A program made the position numbers and the translations under genes. This document shows positions 26,351-53,432 of a stretch of DNA of 60,094 nucleotides, one piece after another (positions within the stretch are counted from its first letter, which is position 1; each line of letters starts with the position of its first letter). The notes under the pieces were generated by a model. The model had not been told where the DNA came from and ran no database searches. It saw only the letters and a program-made list of their open reading frames with translations. Origin of the DNA: a phage; the sequence record PZ445424.1. One strand, 5' to 3'.

Positions 26351-27303
26351 TAGACACGTTCTCCAATTAATACACCGCGAAGATTTTCCCCAAAGAATGC
26401 GCAAGGTTGGGGGTATAAACTAAAGTCCGCAGTCTTAACCACATTTTCAAGCAATAGCAGGATGTCAATATTGTACACTCCCGTTATTGTGCGGTCCTGT
26501 AATACGAAGCTTGCACCTTCTGCATCATCATAGTGAGTACGGGCTAGACCGTTTTCAATATATACGCGAGGTCGGTCTTCTGCGAACGGTTTAATTTTAT
26601 GCAAGCCTTCAAAAAGACCTGGATCAACAGGATGTGCATTGCATGGAACATTTAAAATACGACGTATATCGGGCCATTCCGCATCAATAAGCTGTGTCCG
26701 CAACCAGCGACCTTCCGGATAATGAAACGTTACGTTATTTTTACTAACCTGAATATGCGTCGGGTTAGCTTTAATACGCAGTATTTCTTTAATTGCAACG
26801 GAAGGTATTATGCAATCGATAGGGAACTGATTACCAAACCAGTATTCCGCAATAGTGACGTTATTTGTAGCAAACAGGCTACCGTTATTAATCAGGATAC
26901 CGCAAGCCCACGGACGGGAAGCATCGGACCCAACAAATGGAGCAACGGACTTTACACCATGCACGAAGCGAGCACCGTCTATTTCGTACAAATCACCTTC
27001 AGGGAATACGTGAGGCGTTTCCTTGTCAATGCAGCGTATAGCAACACGAAACGGTCCGGACTTGATATTAAGTTTACCGTTAGCCATCATTGTTAACTGT
27101 ACGGTTTCGTCACAGTTTGAAATAGCTTTAATCATAGGCCCAGCTTCGGGCTTGCAATCAATATCCAGCTCAATAGGGCTACCCAGTGCAATAACACCGT
27201 TAAAGCCTTGCACCTGCCCGTCACGAATAAGAAAACTGGTAAGCCCTTCTACCAGTTCCTTTTTAGCAACGGAACCTTGAACAAATTTAAGAGCGTCAAG
27301 CAT
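26350..27303 (-). CDS. Hypothetical protein, translationally coupled to DNA polymerase
   Basis: 317 aa ORF, stop overlaps polymerase start; no motif recognised. Confidence 0.4.
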   Translation of the reverse strand: MLDALKFVQGSVAKKELVEGLTSFLIRDGQVQGFNGVIALGSPIELDIDCKPEAGPMIKAISNCDETVQLTMMANGKLNIKSGPFRVAIRCIDKETPHVFPEGDLYEIDGARFVHGVKSVAPFVGSDASRPWACGILINNGSLFATNNVTIAEYWFGNQFPIDCIIPSVAIKEILRIKANPTHIQVSKNNVTFHYPEGRWLRTQLIDAEWPDIRRILNVPCNAHPVDPGLFEGLHKIKPFAEDRPRVYIENGLARTHYDDAEGASFVLQDRTITGVYNIDILLLLENVVKTADFSLYPQPCAFFGENLRGVLIGERV

Positions 27304-27539
27304 TAGGAGTCCCCATCTAAGTCTACAAGATACTCAATCTTTAATCTAAAAGGCCCCATATACGATGTAATGGCCATAATACGACCCTCGTTTTTCTCCC
27401 ATATCCAGGGCTCAGGGGGTGGTGGGGTAACTTTTGGTACATAGCCCGCGTTTGTTAACTTAGCGATAGCAACACGACCTACCGCTTTACCCCCAGCTTT
27501 AGATTGGGAAGTAATATATTCTTCACACACAGGTGTCAT
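27303..27539 (-). CDS. Hypothetical protein
   Basis: 78 aa ORF; contiguous with DpdA-like gene. Confidence 0.4.
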   Translation of the reverse strand: MTPVCEEYITSQSKAGGKAVGRVAIAKLTNAGYVPKVTPPPPEPWIWEKNEGRIMAITSYMGPFRLKIEYLVDLDGDS

Positions 27540-27766
27540 TAGCGATCCTCGATTGCTCTAATTGTGGTTAAATCTAATTCACAGGTTGGAGGGTATCCAT
27601 AAAGTCCCATTTGTTTTCCTTGTGCATTAAACCATGTGCCTGACGGATCCTGCCACTGCTTGGGTGTCTTGTGGAGAAATACTACTCTGTTTTCACCGTA
27701 ATAATTAATTCTTACGCCTGTGTGAGTATATTTACGTTTACCTTTTGGTCTTCTTAAGTTAGCCAT
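27539..27766 (-). CDS. Hypothetical protein
   Basis: 75 aa basic ORF immediately downstream of DpdA-like gene. Confidence 0.4.
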   Translation of the reverse strand: MANLRRPKGKRKYTHTGVRINYYGENRVVFLHKTPKQWQDPSGTWFNAQGKQMGLYGYPPTCELDLTTIRAIEDR

Positions 27767-28686
27767 CAGAACAACTCCATTACACGATCACGGAATGTGC
27801 CGTCATGGGTAGCGTTAATGTTTGCAGCAATTACACCATACGCCCATAAGTTGAAGGCAGCACGTGATTCATAGATTGTTGATAAACGTTCGTAAGTGAA
27901 ACCGTTTTGCTCAAGGTATTTAAGGACAGCGTCTTGTTCAATTTCAGTTAATGTTGAAACATGCTTACCAAAATGATGGCGGTCCGGTGACTTATCAGAT
28001 ACGCGCATTGGACCCCACGGAGGAGTAACCACACTTCCAAACGCAGCCGCTTGAATCCAGGAGGATGAGTCACAGCTATACCACGGATAACGCTCCATGA
28101 TGGTAGTGGACGTAATACCAAATGCATGAAGCTTAATCTTAGGGCGACCGCTACCATCGCAAATGTATTTGTCCCACATGCGGTCCAACCAAGTTTTAAG
28201 CGTGTCCGTGGAACGCCCTACCATGCCCCCAATCGTGATATATTCGTAGTTCTTCATGTAGTATTCAAGATAGCGGAAGTCCTCCCCAAAGTGAAAGCAC
28301 GGTAACGGTTTAGCACCGCGTGCTTCCATTTCAAGCTGGTTACGGTATGTTTGCAGCGGATCACCGATACCGTCGAGCACTGACGCCATTACAGCACCAT
28401 CTTCTACGCGAAGGATGTCTTTGTTGCGCTTGATGTATTCGCAGTATTCAACAATATCAATGTGAGCACCCAAAGAGTGCGCAGAGAATGCACCGGAGTC
28501 GAGAAACACTTTAGCCCCATCCGCACGCATTTGATCAACATACTTCTGACGTCCAACGTAGTGGTATGATTCCAAAATATGGGGCAGATTGCGCGTGATA
28601 TTTTTCTCATGCTCAGACAGCTTTTCATAACGCTGCTGTCCAGGCATATATCCGTTTGTGTAAACTGCTGCCATAAAAACGTTCAT
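27766..28686 (-). CDS. dpdA: DpdA-like DNA-guanine transglycosylase (TGT superfamily)
   Basis: 306 aa; VFLDSGAFS matches the catalytic-Asp DSGG(F)Q motif of tRNA-guanine transglycosylases; embedded among FolE/QueD/QueC/QueE genes; GGAG RBS. Confidence 0.65.
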   Translation of the reverse strand: MNVFMAAVYTNGYMPGQQRYEKLSEHEKNITRNLPHILESYHYVGRQKYVDQMRADGAKVFLDSGAFSAHSLGAHIDIVEYCEYIKRNKDILRVEDGAVMASVLDGIGDPLQTYRNQLEMEARGAKPLPCFHFGEDFRYLEYYMKNYEYITIGGMVGRSTDTLKTWLDRMWDKYICDGSGRPKIKLHAFGITSTTIMERYPWYSCDSSSWIQAAAFGSVVTPPWGPMRVSDKSPDRHHFGKHVSTLTEIEQDAVLKYLEQNGFTYERLSTIYESRAAFNLWAYGVIAANINATHDGTFRDRVMELF

Positions 28687-28689
28687 TTC

Positions 28690-28896
28690 TTACTCCACGT
28701 TGTTTAAAGCGACTACTTCAATGAGATAATTTTCTTTCTTAAAGCATTGCTCGCTTAAGATCTGTTCAACTCTAACATGCAGATCCGCATGAATTTGTTT
28801 TGCGTTACTGCTTTCAGCAATACCGTCCATACATAACAGAACTCTGAAAGTACCTTTTTCTACAGCTCGAACGTTGAAAAAGTATTGTCTTACCAT
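28690..28896 (-). CDS. Hypothetical protein
   Basis: Start refined to ATG at 28896 (GGAGGG RBS); 68 aa. Confidence 0.35.
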   Translation of the reverse strand: MVRQYFFNVRAVEKGTFRVLLCMDGIAESSNAKQIHADLHVRVEQILSEQCFKKENYLIEVVALNNVE

Positions 28897-28912
28897 ATTC
28901 CCTCCAATGACT

Positions 28913-28949
28913 AAAAAGCCCATACCAGTATTATGACCGATATGGGCTT
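28913..28949 (-). terminator. Putative intrinsic terminator inside the deazaguanine cluster (downstream of folE)
   Basis: On - strand: AAGCCCATA / TATGGGCTT 9-bp stem with 16-nt loop, followed by TTTTT. Confidence 0.4.
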
Positions 28950-28967
28950 GATCTGTAAAGCTATCTA

Positions 28968-29609
28968 TTATTTACAAGCTTCGAGGAACTCCCGGCGCCA
29001 TTCTTTACCAATATTGCTACCATGCTCCAGTTCTGTAGCGCCCCGGAATGCTTTGGTAATAGTAGAGCTGCCGCATACCTGCTTGACCCCGCGCGACTCC
29101 ATACACATATGCTTAGCATCGATGTAAACGCACACAGCTTTCGGGTCTAAATGCTCCTGGATGGCATCTGCAATCTGGTTAGTAAGACGTTCCTGAACTT
29201 GCAGTCGACGACTAAAAGCATCAACCACGCGAGACAGTTTACTGAGCCCCACAATGCGACCGTTAGGAACGTACCCCACAACAGCACGACCAATAATGGG
29301 AGCCATATGGTGCTCGCAATGACTGTAAACAGGAATATCCCGTACAATAACCATTTCATTAGTATTTTCCGCCCCATCCTCAAAGGTCTTAAACAGCCCA
29401 GCAATATCTGCATCGTAACCGCTAAACCATGTAGCATAAGCTTTAGCTACACGATCTGGAGTCTCTGCTAATCCTGGACGTAACTCAATGCAATCTTCAA
29501 TCTGAGTTAGTAAAGTATGCACCGCGCGAGCAATACGGAATTGAGTACCTTCGTTATCAATAGTAAATTTTGGCATGGTTTGCAGTTTCCTTGTTGTTAA
29601 TGTGGTCAT
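28968..29609 (-). CDS. folE: GTP cyclohydrolase I
   Basis: 213 aa; canonical motifs [10 protein letters not shown] and [10 protein letters not shown]...RLQVQERLT. Confidence 0.85.
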
Positions 29610-29610
29610 A

Positions 29611-30126
29611 TTACAGGCTATAGTTTACGTGACATTTCGAAGTTTCTTCGATGGTGCATTCTACAAGTTGAACACCATGTTCGTCAAGCAGTTGCGGCCC
29701 AATCACGTTAACCATATATGCAGCTAAGTTTTCCGCAGTTGGGTTGAACGGCAGTGATACCAATGAACCTAAATAATCCATTTGATCCCGATGCGACATA
29801 TTGTCCATAGTTGTCGTATCTACAAATTTATTTAAGCTCTCAATGAGTTGATCATGCTCCCAATGCAGGAACTTATGATCCCAGTTGTTTTCCAGCCACT
29901 GGCAAAGTGTAGTCTTAACCACACTAAAGTCGATAACTCGCCCAACATCGTCCAGTTGCTTAAGGGACGCAAAGTCAGCTTCGTGCATGACTGTATAAGG
30001 AACTTTTGGTGCAACCTTAAAATGAAACTTATAGTTGTGACCGTGAAGATGACGGCACTTGCTTTCATGACCTACAACACGATGTCCGGCGCAAATTTCA
30101 TGTGAACGAATTACTGTATAGCTCAT
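29611..30126 (-). CDS. queD: 6-carboxy-5,6,7,8-tetrahydropterin synthase
   Basis: 171 aa; zinc-binding motif CRHLHGHNY and N-terminal CAGHR typical of QueD/PTPS. Confidence 0.8.
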
Positions 30127-30713
30127 TTTAATACCTCTTTAGACTGTTCGATTTCTAACGCACGCTGTGCGGATGCAATAATATCTTTCAAGTCTTCTAC
30201 CAGACTTTTATGACCGCGTTCGCCAGGCTGCAACGCCTTTTTAATCAAATGTTGTAAAGCTGGGTTAGTTGTTTTCCAAGCTTCCAAGACATCATACACG
30301 TCCACGATGCATTTTACAACATTTCCGTTTTCATCTTTACCATAAATAATTTTCTGATATTTATTCATGGGAATTTTAGATGGTTCGTATTTCGTAAAAA
30401 CTGCACCATTAAATGTATTACTTATGCTTATTTCACTAGAAGGTTGATGATACACTCCGGAGCGAGTATTTTCCCGGGCTTGTTTGACGTAATCATCCGC
30501 AACGATATATCTCCAGGCTATAATATCTTGAATTTTATAAGGGCTATTCTCATCCATAGCTGAACGCCCTTCTATAGCCCAGTCCCATCCATGTAATAGA
30601 TTCTTAACGTGTGTGCCGTTTCGCAAACGAACTTCAAACTTTTCATTGCGAAGAAAGATTGGCATTCCTTTCCCATCGTGCTGGTGCCAAATTTTATTAA
30701 GATTATCTTTCAT
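30123..30713 (-). CDS. Hypothetical protein embedded in deazaguanine cluster
   Basis: About 196 aa (start taken at ATG 30713, weak RBS); no recognisable motif; flanked by queD and the transporter gene. Confidence 0.45.
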   Translation of the reverse strand: MKDNLNKIWHQHDGKGMPIFLRNEKFEVRLRNGTHVKNLLHGWDWAIEGRSAMDENSPYKIQDIIAWRYIVADDYVKQARENTRSGVYHQPSSEISISNTFNGAVFTKYEPSKIPMNKYQKIIYGKDENGNVVKCIVDVYDVLEAWKTTNPALQHLIKKALQPGERGHKSLVEDLKDIIASAQRALEIEQSKEVLK

Positions 30714-30715
30714 TT

Positions 30716-31195
30716 TTACGCTCTCGCTGTACGTGAATGAACTTCGTAAACAACCCAAAGGATGGCAGATGCTGTGAACTTACTTAAGCTCATTGCTACC
30801 ATCGATCCTGGATTAACAATACCTATAATACTTAAGAACACAATGGAGTCAATCGGTACAGCTACCAAAGAGCTAATAAATACACGTTGATGAAACGGCT
30901 TCTTAGTAATCGTGTATACCGCATAGTCCGCAAACTCGCTAAGAGCAAAGGATGCAACGGATGCAACTACAACAGCAGGATCCCCAAATACCCAGCTAAG
31001 GATGCAACCCACAATCATTGCAGGAATAACGCCTTTGCCAGCGTTACGCTGTGCGTAGTCACGCAACACAAAGATAATACCTACAAAGAAAGCCATCATC
31101 GGGACTACGCCAAGAGGCGTATTGAGCATTGGAAGGTAGGAAAAGCCCAGGTTTACGAATGTAATTGCAGCCAGATAAGCGACGATAAATTTCAT
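30716..31195 (-). CDS. Queuosine-precursor transporter, YhhQ/DUF165-like membrane protein
   Basis: Start refined to ATG 31195 (RBS GGAGAA). Multi-TM protein; FFVGIIFVLRDYAQRNAG and VPIDSIVFL resemble conserved YhhQ segments (FLATDLTVRIFG, NVSDTLAFF). Confidence 0.55.
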   Translation of the reverse strand: MKFIVAYLAAITFVNLGFSYLPMLNTPLGVVPMMAFFVGIIFVLRDYAQRNAGKGVIPAMIVGCILSWVFGDPAVVVASVASFALSEFADYAVYTITKKPFHQRVFISSLVAVPIDSIVFLSIIGIVNPGSMVAMSLSKFTASAILWVVYEVHSRTARA

Positions 31196-31315
31196 ACTTT
31201 TGTTCTCCAGTTTTAACAGCGTTATTCGCTGGTTGTTGGGTTTAAAAGCTTTAGTAGTATAGTTGGGTTCCCGCACCCTAAACAATGCGCTAGCGGTGCG
31301 GTTTTCTTGGTAAGA

Positions 31316-32023
31316 TCAAGCTTTGCTAATAAATTCGCTGTACCCTTTAGCACGCAGTTTGCACGCAGGACATTCACCGCAACCATAACCCCAGTCATGC
31401 AGAGTACGACGGACGCCGTTATAGCAAGTATGGGACTGTTCAATTACTGTGGTTAAGAAGCCAACCTTATCCGCCAGCTCAAACGTTTCTGCTTTATTTA
31501 AACGCATAAGCGGGGTAACGAAATGAATATCTGTTTCATATCCAACGTTTAACGTAGCTTCAAGCAAGTCTACAAACTGCTGGCGGCAATCCGGATAACC
31601 GCTATAGTCTGTTTCACAGACGCCTGTAACCACATATCGGGCACCAACTTTCTGCGCGTAGGCGTGCGCGGTAGTCAGGAAAAGAGCATTACGGTTTGGC
31701 ACAAAGCTTGCTGGAAGGTTGTTGTGCTGTTCGTGATGTTCGTTAACATCACCTTCGTTCCCAATTAAAGCGCTATTGCCAATCTGTTTCAAAGCAGGTA
31801 ATTCAAAGACAACAAATGGGACATCGTGCTCTTTACAAATTTGATTAGCACAAGCCAGCTCAATGTTATGACGTTGACCGTATGCAAAACCAATAGCGTA
31901 GACCTTATCATAGTTATTAAGGGCAAGACCCAAACAGGTCACGCTGTCCTGGCCGCCAGACAGGACGACAACGGCGGAGTTATGATTTTTTACAGGGAAT
32001 ACCAGTTTATCTAACTTATTCAT
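31316..32023 (-). CDS. queC: 7-cyano-7-deazaguanine synthase
   Basis: 235 aa; PP-loop VVLSGGQDSVTC; C-terminal zinc motif CGECPAC; not fused to an amidotransferase domain. Confidence 0.85.
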   Translation of the reverse strand: MNKLDKLVFPVKNHNSAVVVLSGGQDSVTCLGLALNNYDKVYAIGFAYGQRHNIELACANQICKEHDVPFVVFELPALKQIGNSALIGNEGDVNEHHEQHNNLPASFVPNRNALFLTTAHAYAQKVGARYVVTGVCETDYSGYPDCRQQFVDLLEATLNVGYETDIHFVTPLMRLNKAETFELADKVGFLTTVIEQSHTCYNGVRRTLHDWGYGCGECPACKLRAKGYSEFISKA

Positions 32024-32024
32024 T

Positions 32025-32213
32025 TTAGAAACCTTTAAGGCTAATATTAAGGTTAACGACTACTTGTTCAACTACATCTTCAGAGGTCATCTGACGCTTA
32101 TGAATTTCAAGCTCCGAGTATATTTTCTTGGATGCAGCACGACAAATAGCGTCATTTAACTCGTCCTGTAAACGTTGAATTTTCTGCATAAGAATTACAG
32201 TCTCTTCATTCAT
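32025..32213 (-). CDS. Hypothetical protein
   Basis: 62 aa ORF between queE and queC. Confidence 0.35.
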   Translation of the reverse strand: MNEETVILMQKIQRLQDELNDAICRAASKKIYSELEIHKRQMTSEDVVEQVVVNLNISLKGF

Positions 32214-32418
32214 CTTCTACACCTTTAATATGGCAAGGGTTGATTGTTACGTTTGACATCACAATTGGATGATTGCGTGCCCCGATTGTACTAACGTGAT
32301 TAATATCTAATTCAACATGCACACCCTGCATAGTAGCGTGAGCAATTGCAGAATTAAGTTTTTCTACCAGCTCAGTGATCATTTCCTGATGCTGTTTCGC
32401 TTCTTCCAAAGTGATCAT
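32206..32418 (-). CDS. Hypothetical protein
   Basis: 70 aa ORF. Confidence 0.35.
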   Translation of the reverse strand: MITLEEAKQHQEMITELVEKLNSAIAHATMQGVHVELDINHVSTIGARNHPIVMSNVTINPCHIKGVEDE

Positions 32419-32676
32419 TTAAACCTCCGTTAATGTTTGAGTCCAGTCTAAGCCTTCAAGGTCTACATCAGCTATTTCATCGTACTCGTAAGCTCCCGGA
32501 TCTGCTGGCAGCCATCTATCAAATCGATGGCTGAGTTCTGGAGGAATTGCTTCATACCCCCAAACCTTCCCATCCTTGTCGGCTGCTAGATAATCAACTC
32601 GACTTGGAACGGTTAAAGTGACACCACAAAAATTAACATCTTTAGTATGCACAACCTGACTTAACACACGCATCAT
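32419..32676 (-). CDS. Hypothetical protein (paralog of 54548-54847)
   Basis: 85 aa; shares DGKV...Y.A.P and VDLEG-DW--TL-E motifs with the + strand ORF at 54548. Confidence 0.4.
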   Translation of the reverse strand: MMRVLSQVVHTKDVNFCGVTLTVPSRVDYLAADKDGKVWGYEAIPPELSHRFDRWLPADPGAYEYDEIADVDLEGLDWTQTLTEV

Positions 32677-33380
32677 TCAACCCCAATATATTTGTGAACC
32701 TGAAGCTGCAAAGTGTACCCGTGTTTCATACAGCTTTGGACAACGGCTTGGATATTACTGTGGTTAAGGTCTTCATCCTGCTCGTCCATTGGCTGTAAAT
32801 ATATCTTACCCTTGAACCCCTTCGGAGGTCTAGCGATAAATGGCGTAGCTTGATGATCTAATGCTTGAAGAGGTAAACCGTCTTCCACGTTTACACAGCA
32901 CGCTTTAAGTACATATTTAAATGCATTAGCTCGGTACAGCACAGAAGGATGAATCTTTGAGGTTTTAGGACTACATACAATCACAGGCAACTGTGAAAAG
33001 TTCTTAGGTAAAGGCATAGACCCATTAGTTTCAATCTGCACCAAATAGCCGCGCGATAACAGTTGTTCAATAAACGGGTTAATTTGCTGACGGAACGGTT
33101 CACCCCCAGTGATAACCACAAGTGAGGTGGTATTACCAGATTCCAACTTGCGGCTTTCAATTAAACGCATAATATCGACAATGTGATAAAGACTACGACC
33201 AACAGTATAATCTGTATCACAGCCCGGACATTGCAGGTTACACCCAGCAAGTCGCACAAATACAGCAGGTTGGCCGCAGAACGGACCTTCACCCTGAATG
33301 GTAGAGAATACCGAATGCACGTCTAAATACATATCGTTTTCTTTAGAACGAGACTCGGGAGCTTGTTGATTAATATTCAT
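32673..33380 (-). CDS. queE: 7-carboxy-7-deazaguanine synthase (radical SAM)
   Basis: 235 aa; CNLQCPGC (Cx3Cx2C) cluster motif and VVITGGEP SAM-binding motif; RBS AGAGGA. Confidence 0.8.
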   Translation of the reverse strand: MNINQQAPESRSKENDMYLDVHSVFSTIQGEGPFCGQPAVFVRLAGCNLQCPGCDTDYTVGRSLYHIVDIMRLIESRKLESGNTTSLVVITGGEPFRQQINPFIEQLLSRGYLVQIETNGSMPLPKNFSQLPVIVCSPKTSKIHPSVLYRANAFKYVLKACCVNVEDGLPLQALDHQATPFIARPPKGFKGKIYLQPMDEQDEDLNHSNIQAVVQSCMKHGYTLQLQVHKYIGVE

Positions 33381-33449
33381 CTTAAATCCTCTAGTGAAAA
33401 AGAAAGCGCCTCATTGGGCGCCTTCATTATAACGTGATATGTTTTGATA

Positions 33450-34250
33450 TTACAAGCCGTTCAAGGCTTCCGGTACTGGTACAGGTACGCGACCAGTCAC
33501 ACCATTAAATTTCTTCCAGCGTGCATACTGGGTTTTAACGGTATCTTCGTTCAGACCATGTCGACCAGCCAGGTTCAGAACATAAGAGATCGGAGCAGGC
33601 TGACCCAGCGTAGCGCTAATCTGGTCCATCAGAGCCCAAGCACGACCGCAGGAAGTTTCCGGTTGCGGACGACGAACACCGTTCTGTTCCGGCATACGAT
33701 TAGCTTCTTTTTCTTTCTCGCGGAGCTCTTTAGCGCGCGCTTTTTCCGCTTCTTTTTCTGCCTGTTTTGCAGCACGGATCTTGTCTTTGAAGCCTTTAAT
33801 AGTAGCTTCCAGACCATCCACCAGACCCTGAGCAGAAGTTACAGCACCAGACAGGTCTTCACCTTTAGACTTCTTAACGACAGCTTTCAGCTCTTTCAGA
33901 GCTTCTTTAATGGTCTTCAGGTTTGCAGATCCCTGAGTTTCTGCTTCCGTGATCTGTTCAACAGTGCTTTCGTCGGTGACGGTAGCCAAAGAGTTTTTCA
34001 GAATATCAGCAGCGTTAGCAATCGCATTAAATTTGTTTTCCGCTTCAATGCGGATTTCAGCTTGTTTCTTTTCAGCGGCAGCTTTTTTCTCTGCTTCTTT
34101 TTTCTCTTTTGCTACGCGTGCAGCTTCAGCAGCAGCGGCTTTCTTAGCTTCTGCGTCATTCACAGTAGCTTCTTTCTTTGCAGGTTTAGCAGATTTTGCA
34201 GCGGCAGCGGCGGCTGCGGCAGCAGCTTTTTTGTCTTCAATGTTGCTCAT
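33450..34250 (-). CDS. Ala/Lys/Glu-rich low-complexity protein with structured C-terminal domain
   Basis: Start refined to ATG 34250 (GGAGTG RBS). Poly-Ala run and KAAAEKK repeats encoded by GCN-rich DNA; the overlapping + strand ORF is an antisense shadow. Confidence 0.5.
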   Translation of the reverse strand: MSNIEDKKAAAAAAAAAAKSAKPAKKEATVNDAEAKKAAAAEAARVAKEKKEAEKKAAAEKKQAEIRIEAENKFNAIANAADILKNSLATVTDESTVEQITEAETQGSANLKTIKEALKELKAVVKKSKGEDLSGAVTSAQGLVDGLEATIKGFKDKIRAAKQAEKEAEKARAKELREKEKEANRMPEQNGVRRPQPETSCGRAWALMDQISATLGQPAPISYVLNLAGRHGLNEDTVKTQYARWKKFNGVTGRVPVPVPEALNGL

Positions 34251-34377
34251 TCTCTTCACTCCGAATTGTTATGGGTTCGTTTGTTACCAACGGGGTTAAA
34301 TGTACCAAAGGATTTTGTGACACGCAACCCCTTATCTGAACATTTTTAAAAATATTTTTGATCAAGCTTAGAACTTA

Positions 34378-53318: not shown

Positions 53319-53419
53319 GCCGTGCAACCCGACCCATCCTTTTCCAGGTACTTGGAGTGCTGGGGAGTGCCCTGTCCATCCTGATAGTAAGTCCTTGTCT
53401 AAATCTCACCTGTCACATA

Positions 53420-53432
53420 CCCCCCCCCCCCC
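53420..53432. repeat. Homopolymeric poly(C) tract, 13 nt
   Basis: 13 consecutive C in intergenic DNA about 100 nt upstream of the HNH endonuclease gene. Confidence 0.6.

What the first reader, a model, noticed from the sequence alone, without database searches (positions are those of the whole stretch)
27766..33380. Complete phage-encoded 7-deazaguanine DNA hypermodification cluster (DpdA + FolE + QueD + QueC + QueE)
Five proteins with textbook motifs for preQ0 synthesis from GTP sit in one - strand block: FolE ([13 protein letters not shown]), QueD (CxHLHGH), QueE (Cx3Cx2C radical SAM, GGEP) and QueC (SGGQDS PP-loop, CGECPAC). With them is a TGT-superfamily protein carrying the catalytic DSG motif (VFLDSGAFS). 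In phages this combination is established to insert 7-deazaguanines into genomic DNA, not tRNA, as protection against restriction; from memory this was reported for E. coli phages 9g and CAjan. The cluster also contains five small unassigned ORFs and one unassigned 196-aa ORF.
Basis: partly seen in the sequence, partly recalled or inferred. Interest (0 to 1): 0.85.

Follow-up and report, generated by a model that had tools for sequence, protein, structure and literature searches.

The report
Known phage dPreQ0 DNA-modification gene cluster
This is the already published and annotated gene cluster by which the E. coli phage WildeMaa (Bas23) makes the modified base preQ0 and swaps it for about a quarter of the guanines in its own DNA to escape restriction enzymes, so the finding is correct but ordinary.

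Summary
All five enzymes sit at the stated coordinates with the stated motifs.

- **Source.** The window matches Escherichia phage WildeMaa (Bas23, MZ501112.1, genus Seuratvirus) at 100% over the segments compared. Its GenBank record already names DpdA, FolE, QueD, QueC and QueE.
- **Missed gene.** The record also names a YhhQ-type preQ0 transporter.
- **Link to a tested phage.** DpdA is 305/306 identical to DpdA of phage CAjan. In CAjan, LC-MS/MS, gene deletions and nanopore mapping showed dPreQ0 at GA and GGC sites, about 25-32% of G, dependent on dpdA, folE and queC.
- **Product.** No glutamine-amidotransferase domain matches anywhere in the window, and no ArcS- or QueF-like enzyme is annotated. 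The expected product is therefore dPreQ0, not the archaeosine (dG+) of phage 9g.
- **Predicted level.** GA plus GGC contexts hold 28.4% of all G in the window.
- **What remains open.** Five ORFs between the enzymes stay unassigned. The 196-aa one ends in a very widespread, uncharacterised 60-aa phage module, and I found no evidence linking it to the pathway.

Novelty: already known. Interest: low.

The parts
27766..28686 (-). dpdA: DNA guanine transglycosylase of the phage DpdA1 type, which inserts preQ0 into DNA (306 aa)
28690..28923 (-). orf77: unassigned small ORF (bas23_0038)
   Evidence: It has no Pfam, PHROG or NCBIfam hit. It has no counterpart in CAjan, which carries the unrelated gp36 at this position.
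28968..29609 (-). folE: GTP cyclohydrolase I, the first step (GTP to H2NTP)
   Evidence: Pfam PF01227 scores 1.8e-63. TIGR00063 scores 194.6 bits against a cutoff of 181.6. It is 89% identical to CAjan gp37 over residues 32-213, and the N-terminus differs.
29611..30126 (-). queD: 6-carboxytetrahydropterin synthase
   Evidence: Pfam PTPS scores 6.9e-21. PHROG 2389 scores 1.8e-52. The CRHLHGH motif is present. It is 72% identical to CAjan gp38, with a divergent internal insert.
30123..30713 (-). orf196: unassigned ORF (bas23_0041). The N-terminal domain is specific to Seuratviruses, and the C-terminal module of about 60 aa is widespread in phages.
30716..31195 (-). yhhQ-like: short (159 aa) VUT/YhhQ-family membrane protein, a putative preQ0 salvage transporter
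   Evidence: Pfam Vut_1 scores 4.5e-5 (24.3 bits, just under the cutoff of 27.2). TIGR00697, the queuosine precursor transporter model, scores 1.4e-4. Most homologues carry PF02592, and some are named queuosine precursor transporter. It is 98.7% identical to CAjan gp41. It has several hydrophobic stretches. In CAjan it is dispensable for modification.
31316..32023 (-). queC: 7-cyano-7-deazaguanine (preQ0) synthase, without a Gat domain
   Evidence: Pfam QueC scores 9.2e-75. TIGR00364 scores 243 bits against a cutoff of 150.3. It aligns only to positions 132-351 of the 418-position PHROG 1550 profile. Only the QueC half of 9g Gat-QueC (residues 241-457) matches the window. It is 97.4% identical to CAjan gp42.
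32025..32213 (-). orf62: unassigned small ORF (bas23_0044)
   Evidence: It matches PHROG 24420, of unknown function. It is 92% identical to CAjan gp43. It is weakly similar to the neighbouring orf70.
32206..32418 (-). orf70: unassigned small ORF (bas23_0045)
   Evidence: It matches PHROG 26258 and has no Pfam hit. It is 97% identical to CAjan gp44, whose label 'radical SAM domain-containing' is not supported by Pfam here.
32419..32676 (-). orf85: unassigned small ORF (bas23_0046), overlapping the end of queE by 4 nt
   Evidence: It matches PHROG 1972, of unknown function. CAjan has no counterpart.
32673..33380 (-). queE: radical-SAM 7-carboxy-7-deazaguanine synthase
   Evidence: The Cx3Cx2C (CNLQCPGC) and GGEP motifs are present. 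PHROG 2076 scores 1.5e-68. The five best NCBIfam hits are all QueE models at 73-97 bits, all below their cutoffs. It is 99.1% identical to CAjan gp45.
33402..33455 (-). Intergenic signals upstream of queE: a promoter-like site (33455-33426) and a terminator-like hairpin with a T-run (33425-33402)
   Evidence: These are consensus scan hits only, and the number of such sites in the region is not above chance. They lie in the 69-nt gap between orf269 and queE. Whether they function was not tested.

Best explanation
The block is the Seuratvirus-type 7-deazaguanine DNA modification module of Escherichia phage WildeMaa (Bas23).

Proposed pathway:
1. FolE, QueD, QueE and QueC convert GTP to H2NTP, then CPH4, then CDG, then preQ0 inside the infected cell.
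2. A short YhhQ-like membrane protein may add salvaged preQ0.
3. DpdA, a TIM-barrel transglycosylase of the tRNA-guanine transglycosylase superfamily, flips out guanines in double-stranded phage DNA after replication. It uses D206 as nucleophile and D63 as general base, and exchanges the base for preQ0 at 5'-GA-3' and 5'-GGC-3' contexts.

About a quarter to a third of G would become dPreQ0. That blocks many type I and type II restriction enzymes but not type III. It also exposes the phage to defences that recognise the modified base.

Shown for this sequence: gene content, intact motifs, the DpdA fold, and the lack of any match to the 9g Gat domain. Shown for this phage in the literature: resistance to type I and II restriction-modification systems. 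Inferred from the near-identical phage CAjan: the chemical identity of the base, the target motifs, the level of modification, and the requirement for dpdA, folE and queC.
For: - **Identity.** The window matches MZ501112.1 at 100% over the two segments compared, 1-25000 and 27500-33500. GenBank annotates DpdA, FolE, QueD, YhhQ, QueC and QueE.
- **Orthology to CAjan.** DpdA 99.7%, QueE 99.1%, YhhQ 98.7%, QueC 97.4%, FolE 89%, QueD 72%.
- **CAjan experiments.** LC-MS/MS found 70,628 dPreQ0 per 10^6 nt, about 32% of G, and none in the dpdA deletion mutant, which became restriction-sensitive. Deletions of folE, queC and dpdA lost the nanopore signal, while the yhhQ deletion did not. The motifs are GA and GGC.
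- **DpdA fold and residues.**
- **No amidotransferase.** Only the QueC half of 9g Gat-QueC matches the window. The whole-genome annotation lists no ArcS-, QueF- or Gat-like enzyme.
- **Predicted level.** GA plus GGC contexts hold 28.4% of G here, against 23.96% plus 4.28% published for CAjan.
- **Phenotype.** The BASEL paper states that Seuratvirus phages carry dPreQ0. Among Queuovirinae, only Bas19 and Bas25 show some sensitivity to type I/II systems, and all are sensitive to type III.
- **Trade-off.** A G217E change in the DpdA of another dPreQ0 phage abolished modification and allowed escape from the Dag1 glycosylase defence. G217 is invariant in my alignment, but I did not verify that the numbering is equivalent.
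Against: - I found no direct chemical measurement on WildeMaa virion DNA in the literature I searched.
- DpdA gets no Pfam hit and no sequence-level PDB hit. It scores only 17 bits on the bacterial DpdA equivalog model, whose cutoff is 200, so its family assignment rests on PHROG, fold and orthology.
- The C-terminal third of the DpdA model has low confidence (pLDDT below 50 from residue 209).
- QueE, QueD and YhhQ fall below some curated cutoffs.
- FolE and QueD differ noticeably from their CAjan counterparts. Their motifs are intact, but their activity is inferred.
Confidence: 0.95

Rival explanations
1. The cluster installs a different 7-deazaguanine, such as dG+ as in phage 9g, dADG or dPreQ1, rather than dPreQ0.
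For: The same core enzymes (DpdA, FolE, QueD, QueE) are shared with the dG+ phage 9g at 64-80% identity. Several unassigned ORFs lie inside the cluster and could in principle be tailoring enzymes. Trace dADG occurs in some dPreQ0 phages.
Against: No Gat domain matches anywhere in the window. No ArcS- or QueF-like enzyme is annotated. CAjan has near-identical QueC and DpdA and contains dPreQ0, with every other derivative below 6 per 10^6 nt. The unassigned ORFs have no enzyme-like profile hits.
Confidence: 0.03
2. The genes act on RNA. They would boost or alter queuosine or preQ0 modification of tRNA during infection, and DNA would not be the target.
For: Many database records annotate the DpdA homologue as 'queuine tRNA-ribosyltransferase'. 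The fold is shared with tRNA transglycosylases.
Against: The best structural match is the DNA enzyme bacterial DpdA. In CAjan, whose DpdA is 99.7% identical, deleting dpdA removes all dPreQ0 from DNA and restores restriction sensitivity. The protein has only the catalytic barrel. It is 306 aa against 577 aa for ArcTGT, so it lacks the extra tRNA-binding domains.
Confidence: 0.01
3. The cluster is present but inactive or only partly active in this particular phage. The diverged FolE N-terminus or the QueD insert would be the likely cause, and any modification would rely on host preQ0.
For: FolE is 89% identical to its CAjan counterpart with a replaced N-terminus, and QueD is 72% identical. In CAjan, folE and queC deletion mutants still incorporate about 12-fold less preQ0 from host metabolism.
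Against: All ORFs are intact and carry their catalytic motifs. FolE passes the equivalog cutoff. The same FolE and QueD variants are common among Seuratviruses at 90-95% DNA identity. The BASEL paper does not list Bas23 among the restriction-sensitive exceptions.
Confidence: 0.02

Closest known systems
Escherichia phage CAjan 7-deazaguanine cluster (Seuratvirus; Hutinet et al. 2019, PMC6884629; Kot et al. 2020, PMC7544227)
   Same: The gene order is the same: queE, two small ORFs, queC, yhhQ, the gp40 homologue, queD, folE, a small ORF, dpdA, lying between the helicase and DNA polymerase clamp genes. DpdA is 99.7% identical, QueE 99.1%, YhhQ 98.7% and QueC 97.4%. GA plus GGC contexts hold the same share of G, 28.4% against 28.2%.
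   Different: The accessory content is mosaic. WildeMaa has orf77 and orf85 and lacks CAjan gp36 and gp39. The FolE N-terminus, the QueD insert and the first two thirds of orf196/gp40 are replaced. No chemical data exist for WildeMaa itself.
Enterobacteria phage 9g dG+ (archaeosine) cluster (Nonagvirus)
   Same: The overall layout and neighbourhood match. DpdA is 69% identical, FolE 80%, QueD 71% and QueE 64%. The C-terminus of 9g gp07 carries the same module as orf196.
   Different: 9g has a 471-aa Gat-QueC fusion that gives dG+. Here QueC is 235 aa, only 27.6% identical to the QueC half of that fusion, and no Gat domain is present. 9g has no yhhQ.
Bacterial Dpd system (DpdA/DpdB/DpdC, Salmonella Montevideo; PDB 7UI4; PMC10164549)
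   Different: The phage protein fails the bacterial DpdA equivalog model, scoring 17 bits against a cutoff of 200. The window contains no DpdB ATPase, no DpdC and no restriction module. Published modification levels are below 0.1% of G for bacterial DpdA, against up to about 30% for phage DpdA1.
Pseudomonas phage iggy dPreQ0 cluster (PMC10484667)
   Same: It is a Queuovirinae-like siphovirus with the gene order queE-queC-queD-folE-dpdA, and its product is dPreQ0.
   Different: iggy DpdA targets GA only, about 16.5% of G. Its QueC is unrelated at the 30% identity threshold, and it has no yhhQ.

Membership tests
Seuratvirus/CAjan-type dPreQ0 DNA modification cluster | A DpdA1-type DNA transglycosylase orthologous to CAjan gp35 | tested here: met
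   305/306 identical
Seuratvirus/CAjan-type dPreQ0 DNA modification cluster | The complete preQ0 pathway: FolE, QueD, QueE and QueC | tested here: met
   Profile hits and motifs for all four
Seuratvirus/CAjan-type dPreQ0 DNA modification cluster | No amidotransferase (Gat-QueC or ArcS) and no QueF, so the pathway stops at preQ0 | tested here: met
   tblastn with 9g Gat-QueC matches only its QueC half. The Gat part of the PHROG 1550 profile is unmatched. The genome annotation lists no such gene. ArcS and QueF were not searched with their own profiles across every ORF.
Seuratvirus/CAjan-type dPreQ0 DNA modification cluster | Same genomic position and order, between the DNA polymerase clamp and the SF2 helicase in the replication module | tested here: met
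   Annotations of WildeMaa and CAjan side by side
Seuratvirus/CAjan-type dPreQ0 DNA modification cluster | dPreQ0 present in virion DNA at GA/GGC sites | not testable with these tools
   This needs LC-MS/MS or nanopore data from WildeMaa DNA. It is known only for CAjan.
TGT superfamily / DpdA | [quoted passage not shown] | tested here: met
TGT superfamily / DpdA | Two catalytic aspartates and the preQ0/guanine pocket residues | tested here: met
   D63, D206, S64, F67, D105, H132, G153, G154 and F189, as listed by Kot et al., are present and invariant in 32 homologues.
Bacterial DpdA (NCBIfam NF041059 equivalog) | Score at or above the curated cutoff of 200 bits | tested here: not met
   It scores 17 bits (E 0.0021) over 66 residues. 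It therefore belongs to the phage DpdA1 subfamily described, not to bacterial DpdA.
Nonagvirus/9g-type dG+ cluster | A Gat-QueC fusion (glutamine amidotransferase domain fused to QueC) | tested here: not met
   QueC is 235 aa, and residues 1-240 of 9g gp06 have no match in the window.
YhhQ/VUT (PF02592) queuosine-precursor transporter | Profile match at the curated threshold | tested here: inconclusive
   The protein itself scores 24.3 bits against 27.2 in Pfam and 21.7 against 50.95 in TIGR00697. These are its only hits. Most homologues down to 37% identity carry PF02592, and some are named queuosine precursor transporter. At 159 aa it is shorter than the 187-201-aa forms.
YhhQ/VUT (PF02592) queuosine-precursor transporter | Transports preQ0 | not testable with these tools
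   It is dispensable for modification in CAjan under laboratory conditions.
DUF3310 / T7 gp1.7 nucleotide kinase (considered for orf196) | A detectable profile relationship to PF11753 | tested here: not met
   T7 gp1.7 hits PF11753 at 4.5e-23, while orf196 and 34 homologues do not. hhalign probability is 3%. The two proteins hit disjoint sets of PHROGs. The only hints are weak Foldseek matches to proteins annotated as nucleotide kinase, at E of 0.014 or worse.

The most novel reading that the evidence does not exclude
One of the unassigned ORFs kept inside the cluster could be a real accessory of the modification system. The best candidate is the orf196 / CAjan gp40 / 9g gp07 family. It holds a place among the que genes in both Seuratvirus and Nonagvirus, and it ends in a 60-aa module so conserved that it occurs in more than 4000 phage protein clusters. 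Possible roles are steering or timing DpdA on replicating DNA, or countering host defences that recognise 7-deazaguanine DNA. My evidence does not exclude this. It does lean against it, because the module occurs mostly in phages not known to carry DpdA.
Probability: 0.08. Interest if true: 0.45.

Novelty: already known. Interest (0 to 1): 0.08.

Why it matters
7-Deazaguanine DNA modification is an important anti-restriction strategy of phages. It matters for phage therapy, for sequencing (it degrades nanopore quality) and for the arms race with modification-sensing defences. For this window, however, the cluster adds nothing new. The phage is a widely used member of the BASEL collection, the genes are named in its GenBank record, and the chemistry, genetics and target motifs were worked out in the near-identical phage CAjan. 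The useful result of this check is negative. The finding is real, correctly interpreted and ordinary, and it should not be ranked as a discovery.

Tried and rejected
1. **Sequence-level link of DpdA to solved structures.** phmmer and a 32-sequence profile against PDB found nothing. Only structure comparison worked.
2. **Function for orf196.**
   - Foldseek against viral models matched only unnamed proteins, plus weak matches to proteins annotated as nucleotide kinase.
   - The DUF3310 / T7 gp1.7 idea failed with hhalign and with a comparison of PHROG hit sets.
   - An exhaustive profile search showed the C-terminal module in 4271 clusters but brought no annotation.
   - Pfam on ten long fusion partners gave one marginal RNHCP hit.
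3. **A preQ1-type riboswitch or other RNA element in the intergenic gaps.** Rfam found nothing at gathering thresholds in the whole window. In the cluster it found only a chance-level sraL hit.
4. **Promoter and terminator scan.** The counts are not above shuffled expectation, so the hairpin upstream of queE is noted only in passing.
5. **The afdb50 fold library** was unavailable.
6. **Direct data on WildeMaa DNA chemistry.** Searching the literature for 'WildeMaa' or 'Bas23' gave none.


Full report
**What the window is**

Megablast of the region (27500-33500) and of the first 25 kb against GenBank phage records gives a 100% match over the full query to Escherichia phage WildeMaa. This phage is MZ501112.1, 60,090 bp, genus Seuratvirus, subfamily Queuovirinae. 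It was isolated on E. coli K-12 from Basel sewage and is phage Bas23 of the BASEL collection. The window is the record rotated by 535 nt. It carries one 4-nt insertion beside a C13 tract near window position 53,415. Thirty-three other records cover at least 80% of the region at 90-95% identity. All are Seuratvirus-like coliphages.

**Checking the observation**

The ORF list and translations show all five enzymes on the minus strand at the stated coordinates with the stated motifs.

| Gene | Coordinates | Motif seen | Profile support |
|---|---|---|---|
| dpdA | 27766-28686 | VFLDSGAFS | PHROG 887, 2.3e-96 |
| folE | 28968-29609 | [16 protein letters not shown] | Pfam 1.8e-63; passes its NCBIfam equivalog cutoff |
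| queD | 29611-30126 | CRHLHGH | PTPS 6.9e-21; PHROG 1.8e-52 |
| queC | 31316-32023 | SGGQDS, CGECPAC | Pfam 9.2e-75; passes its NCBIfam equivalog cutoff |
| queE | 32673-33380 | CNLQCPGC, TGGEP | five best NCBIfam hits all QueE models, below cutoffs; PHROG 'QueE-like' 1.5e-68 |

DpdA has no Pfam hit.

The genes are almost contiguous. Spacing runs from -8 to +3 nt, except for gaps of 44, 120 and 69 nt.

One detail is wrong. Its only profile hits are the VUT/YhhQ family (Pfam 24.3 bits against a cutoff of 27.2) and TIGR00697, the 'queuosine precursor transporter' model. Its homologues mostly carry PF02592. GenBank calls it the preQ0 transporter YhhQ.

**Is the 306-aa protein a DpdA?**

Sequence-only searches against PDB fail, both with the single sequence and with a 32-sequence profile. 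The bacterial DpdA equivalog model scores only 17 bits against a cutoff of 200.

An AlphaFold model built on 32 homologues has a confident alpha/beta core over residues 1-208. Its C-terminal third is poorly predicted (mean pLDDT 66.5).

Kot et al. named residues for the CAjan enzyme: nucleophile D206, general base D63, and pocket residues S64, F67, D105, H132, G153, G154 and F189. All are present here and invariant across the alignment. The protein is 305/306 identical to CAjan gp35, with one P182A difference outside those sites. It is therefore a phage DpdA1-type enzyme (classification), not a member of the bacterial DpdA equivalog family.

**What it makes and how**

The BASEL paper states that Seuratvirus and Nonagvirus phages share FolE, QueD, QueE and QueC for preQ0 synthesis, with DpdA for insertion. 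A Gat-QueC fusion in Nonagvirus gives dG+ instead of dPreQ0.

I tested this distinction directly. tblastn of the 9g proteins against the window shows DpdA, FolE, QueD and QueE at 64-80% identity. Only residues 241-457 of the 471-aa Gat-QueC match, at 27.6% identity, and nothing in the window matches its Gat half. The annotation of the whole genome lists no ArcS-, QueF- or amidotransferase-like gene. The expected product is therefore dPreQ0.

For CAjan the following was measured:
- 70,628 dPreQ0 per 10^6 nt, about 32% of G, with all other derivatives below detection.
- None in a dpdA deletion mutant, which became fully restrictable.
- Loss of the nanopore signal in folE, queC and dpdA deletion mutants, but not in the yhhQ deletion mutant.
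- Residual 12-fold lower incorporation from host preQ0.
- Target contexts GA and GGC.

In the window, GA plus GGC contexts contain 28.4% of all G, or 62,835 per 10^6 nt. The published figures for CAjan are 23.96% plus 4.28%.

[quoted passage not shown] A recent preprint shows the flip side. A glycosylase defence, Dag1, attacks dPreQ0 DNA, and phages escape by a G217E change in DpdA that abolishes modification. G217 is invariant in my alignment, though I did not verify that the numbering is equivalent.

**Surroundings and differences from CAjan**

The cluster lies in the minus-strand replication module, between the DNA polymerase and clamp genes and an SF2 helicase, as in CAjan and 9g. The enzymes are conserved but the filler is mosaic.
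- orf77 (28690-28923) and orf85 (32419-32676) have no CAjan counterpart.
- CAjan gp36 and gp39 are absent here.
- The FolE N-terminus, an internal QueD insert and the first two thirds of orf196 are replaced.
- Divergence of queC among Queuovirinae has already been published.

**The unassigned 196-aa ORF**

Its last 60 or so residues form a module with the consensus NKYxREIK…VDVYDVLxAWxVxNPALQHLIKKALQPGERGHK…DLxDIxASAxRAxELE. This module is 65-79% identical in many unrelated small phage proteins. It occurs in 4271 cluster representatives at E of 0.001 or better and at the C-terminus of 9g gp07.

By eye it resembles DUF3310, the C-terminal domain of the T7 gp1.7 nucleotide kinase. That link was not supported. 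T7 gp1.7 hits PF11753 and orf196 does not. hhalign probability is 3%. The two proteins hit disjoint PHROG sets.

One protein in the database, P0181, is an in-frame fusion of YhhQ residues 1-54 to CAjan gp40 residues 77-189. It was found in four sequencing runs on CAjan-like contigs. Its junction fits the 550-bp 'yhhQ deletion' at position 31,850 in Table 1 of Kot et al., given the gene coordinates.

If that is the same mutant, the N-terminal domain of gp40 is dispensable for modification, but the conserved module was retained. This is an inference. I commit to "not part of the pathway, function unknown" as the most likely reading.

**RNA and regulatory elements**

Rfam finds nothing at gathering thresholds in the window. 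In the cluster it finds only a chance-level hit, so there is no preQ1 riboswitch. A -10-like box and a GC-rich hairpin with a T-run sit in the 69-nt gap just upstream of queE. Such consensus sites are no more frequent in the region than in shuffled sequence, so I only note them.

**Verdict**

It is already known. The genes are named one by one in the public record of this very phage. The pathway is drawn for this genus in the BASEL paper. The mechanism was established in a phage whose DpdA differs by one residue. Interest is low.

Noticed in passing
window 30126-30371 (-), the C-terminal 82 aa of orf196: A highly conserved module of about 60 aa (…VDVYDVLxAWxVxNPALQHLIKKALQPGERGHK…DLxDIxASAxRA…). 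It occurs in 4271 protein-cluster representatives, mostly at the C-terminus of small phage proteins with unrelated N-termini, and in 9g gp07. It has no Pfam family, no solved relative, and no detectable link to DUF3310 / T7 gp1.7.
   Followed up: yes
L008 3001-3501 and L009-L011 (runs SRR14312197-200); compare window 30123-31195: These contigs encode an in-frame fusion of YhhQ residues 1-54 to CAjan gp40 residues 77-189 on CAjan-like contigs. The junction fits the 550-bp 'yhhQ deletion' at position 31,850 in Kot et al. 2020. If it is that mutant, the mutant also lost the N-terminal domain of gp40 but kept its conserved C-terminal module.
   Followed up: partly
window 32025-32418 (-): orf62 and orf70 overlap by 8 nt and are weakly similar to each other (38% over 26 aa, E 1e-4), which suggests a tandem duplication. 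The CAjan orthologue of orf70 is labelled 'radical SAM domain-containing protein', but Pfam finds no domain in it.
   Followed up: partly
window 33381-33449 (-): The 69-nt gap upstream of queE holds a TATAAT-like box, then the hairpin GAAGGCGCC-CAATGA-GGCGCTTTC followed by T5, then a GAGGA ribosome-binding site. It may be a terminator for the upstream gene, or an attenuator. Rfam gives no match.
   Followed up: partly
window 53415-53432: The window differs from GenBank MZ501112.1 by a 4-nt insertion (CATA) directly before a run of 13 C. It lies near the 3' end of the annotated gene bas23_0080. It may be a homopolymer-associated assembly or version difference.
   Followed up: partly
window 33450-34259 (-): This 269-aa ORF has an Ala/Lys/Glu-rich, low-complexity N-terminal half and a conserved C-terminal part. 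It is 83% identical to CAjan gp46, which is labelled 'FtrA domain-containing transcriptional activator'. No Pfam domain supports that label here.
   Followed up: partly
window 31316-32023 (-) compared with L006 5207-6622: QueC is only 27.6% identical to the QueC half of 9g Gat-QueC, while the other four enzymes are 64-80% identical. This suggests QueC was replaced rather than simply fused or unfused between the two genera. Divergence of queC among Queuovirinae has already been noted in PMC10484667.
   Followed up: partly
window 27303-27539 (-) and 27539-27766 (-): Two small ORFs lie between dpdA and the DNA polymerase clamp gene. orf75 is 100% identical to CAjan gp34. orf78 has no CAjan counterpart and no PHROG, Pfam or NCBIfam hit.
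   Followed up: partly
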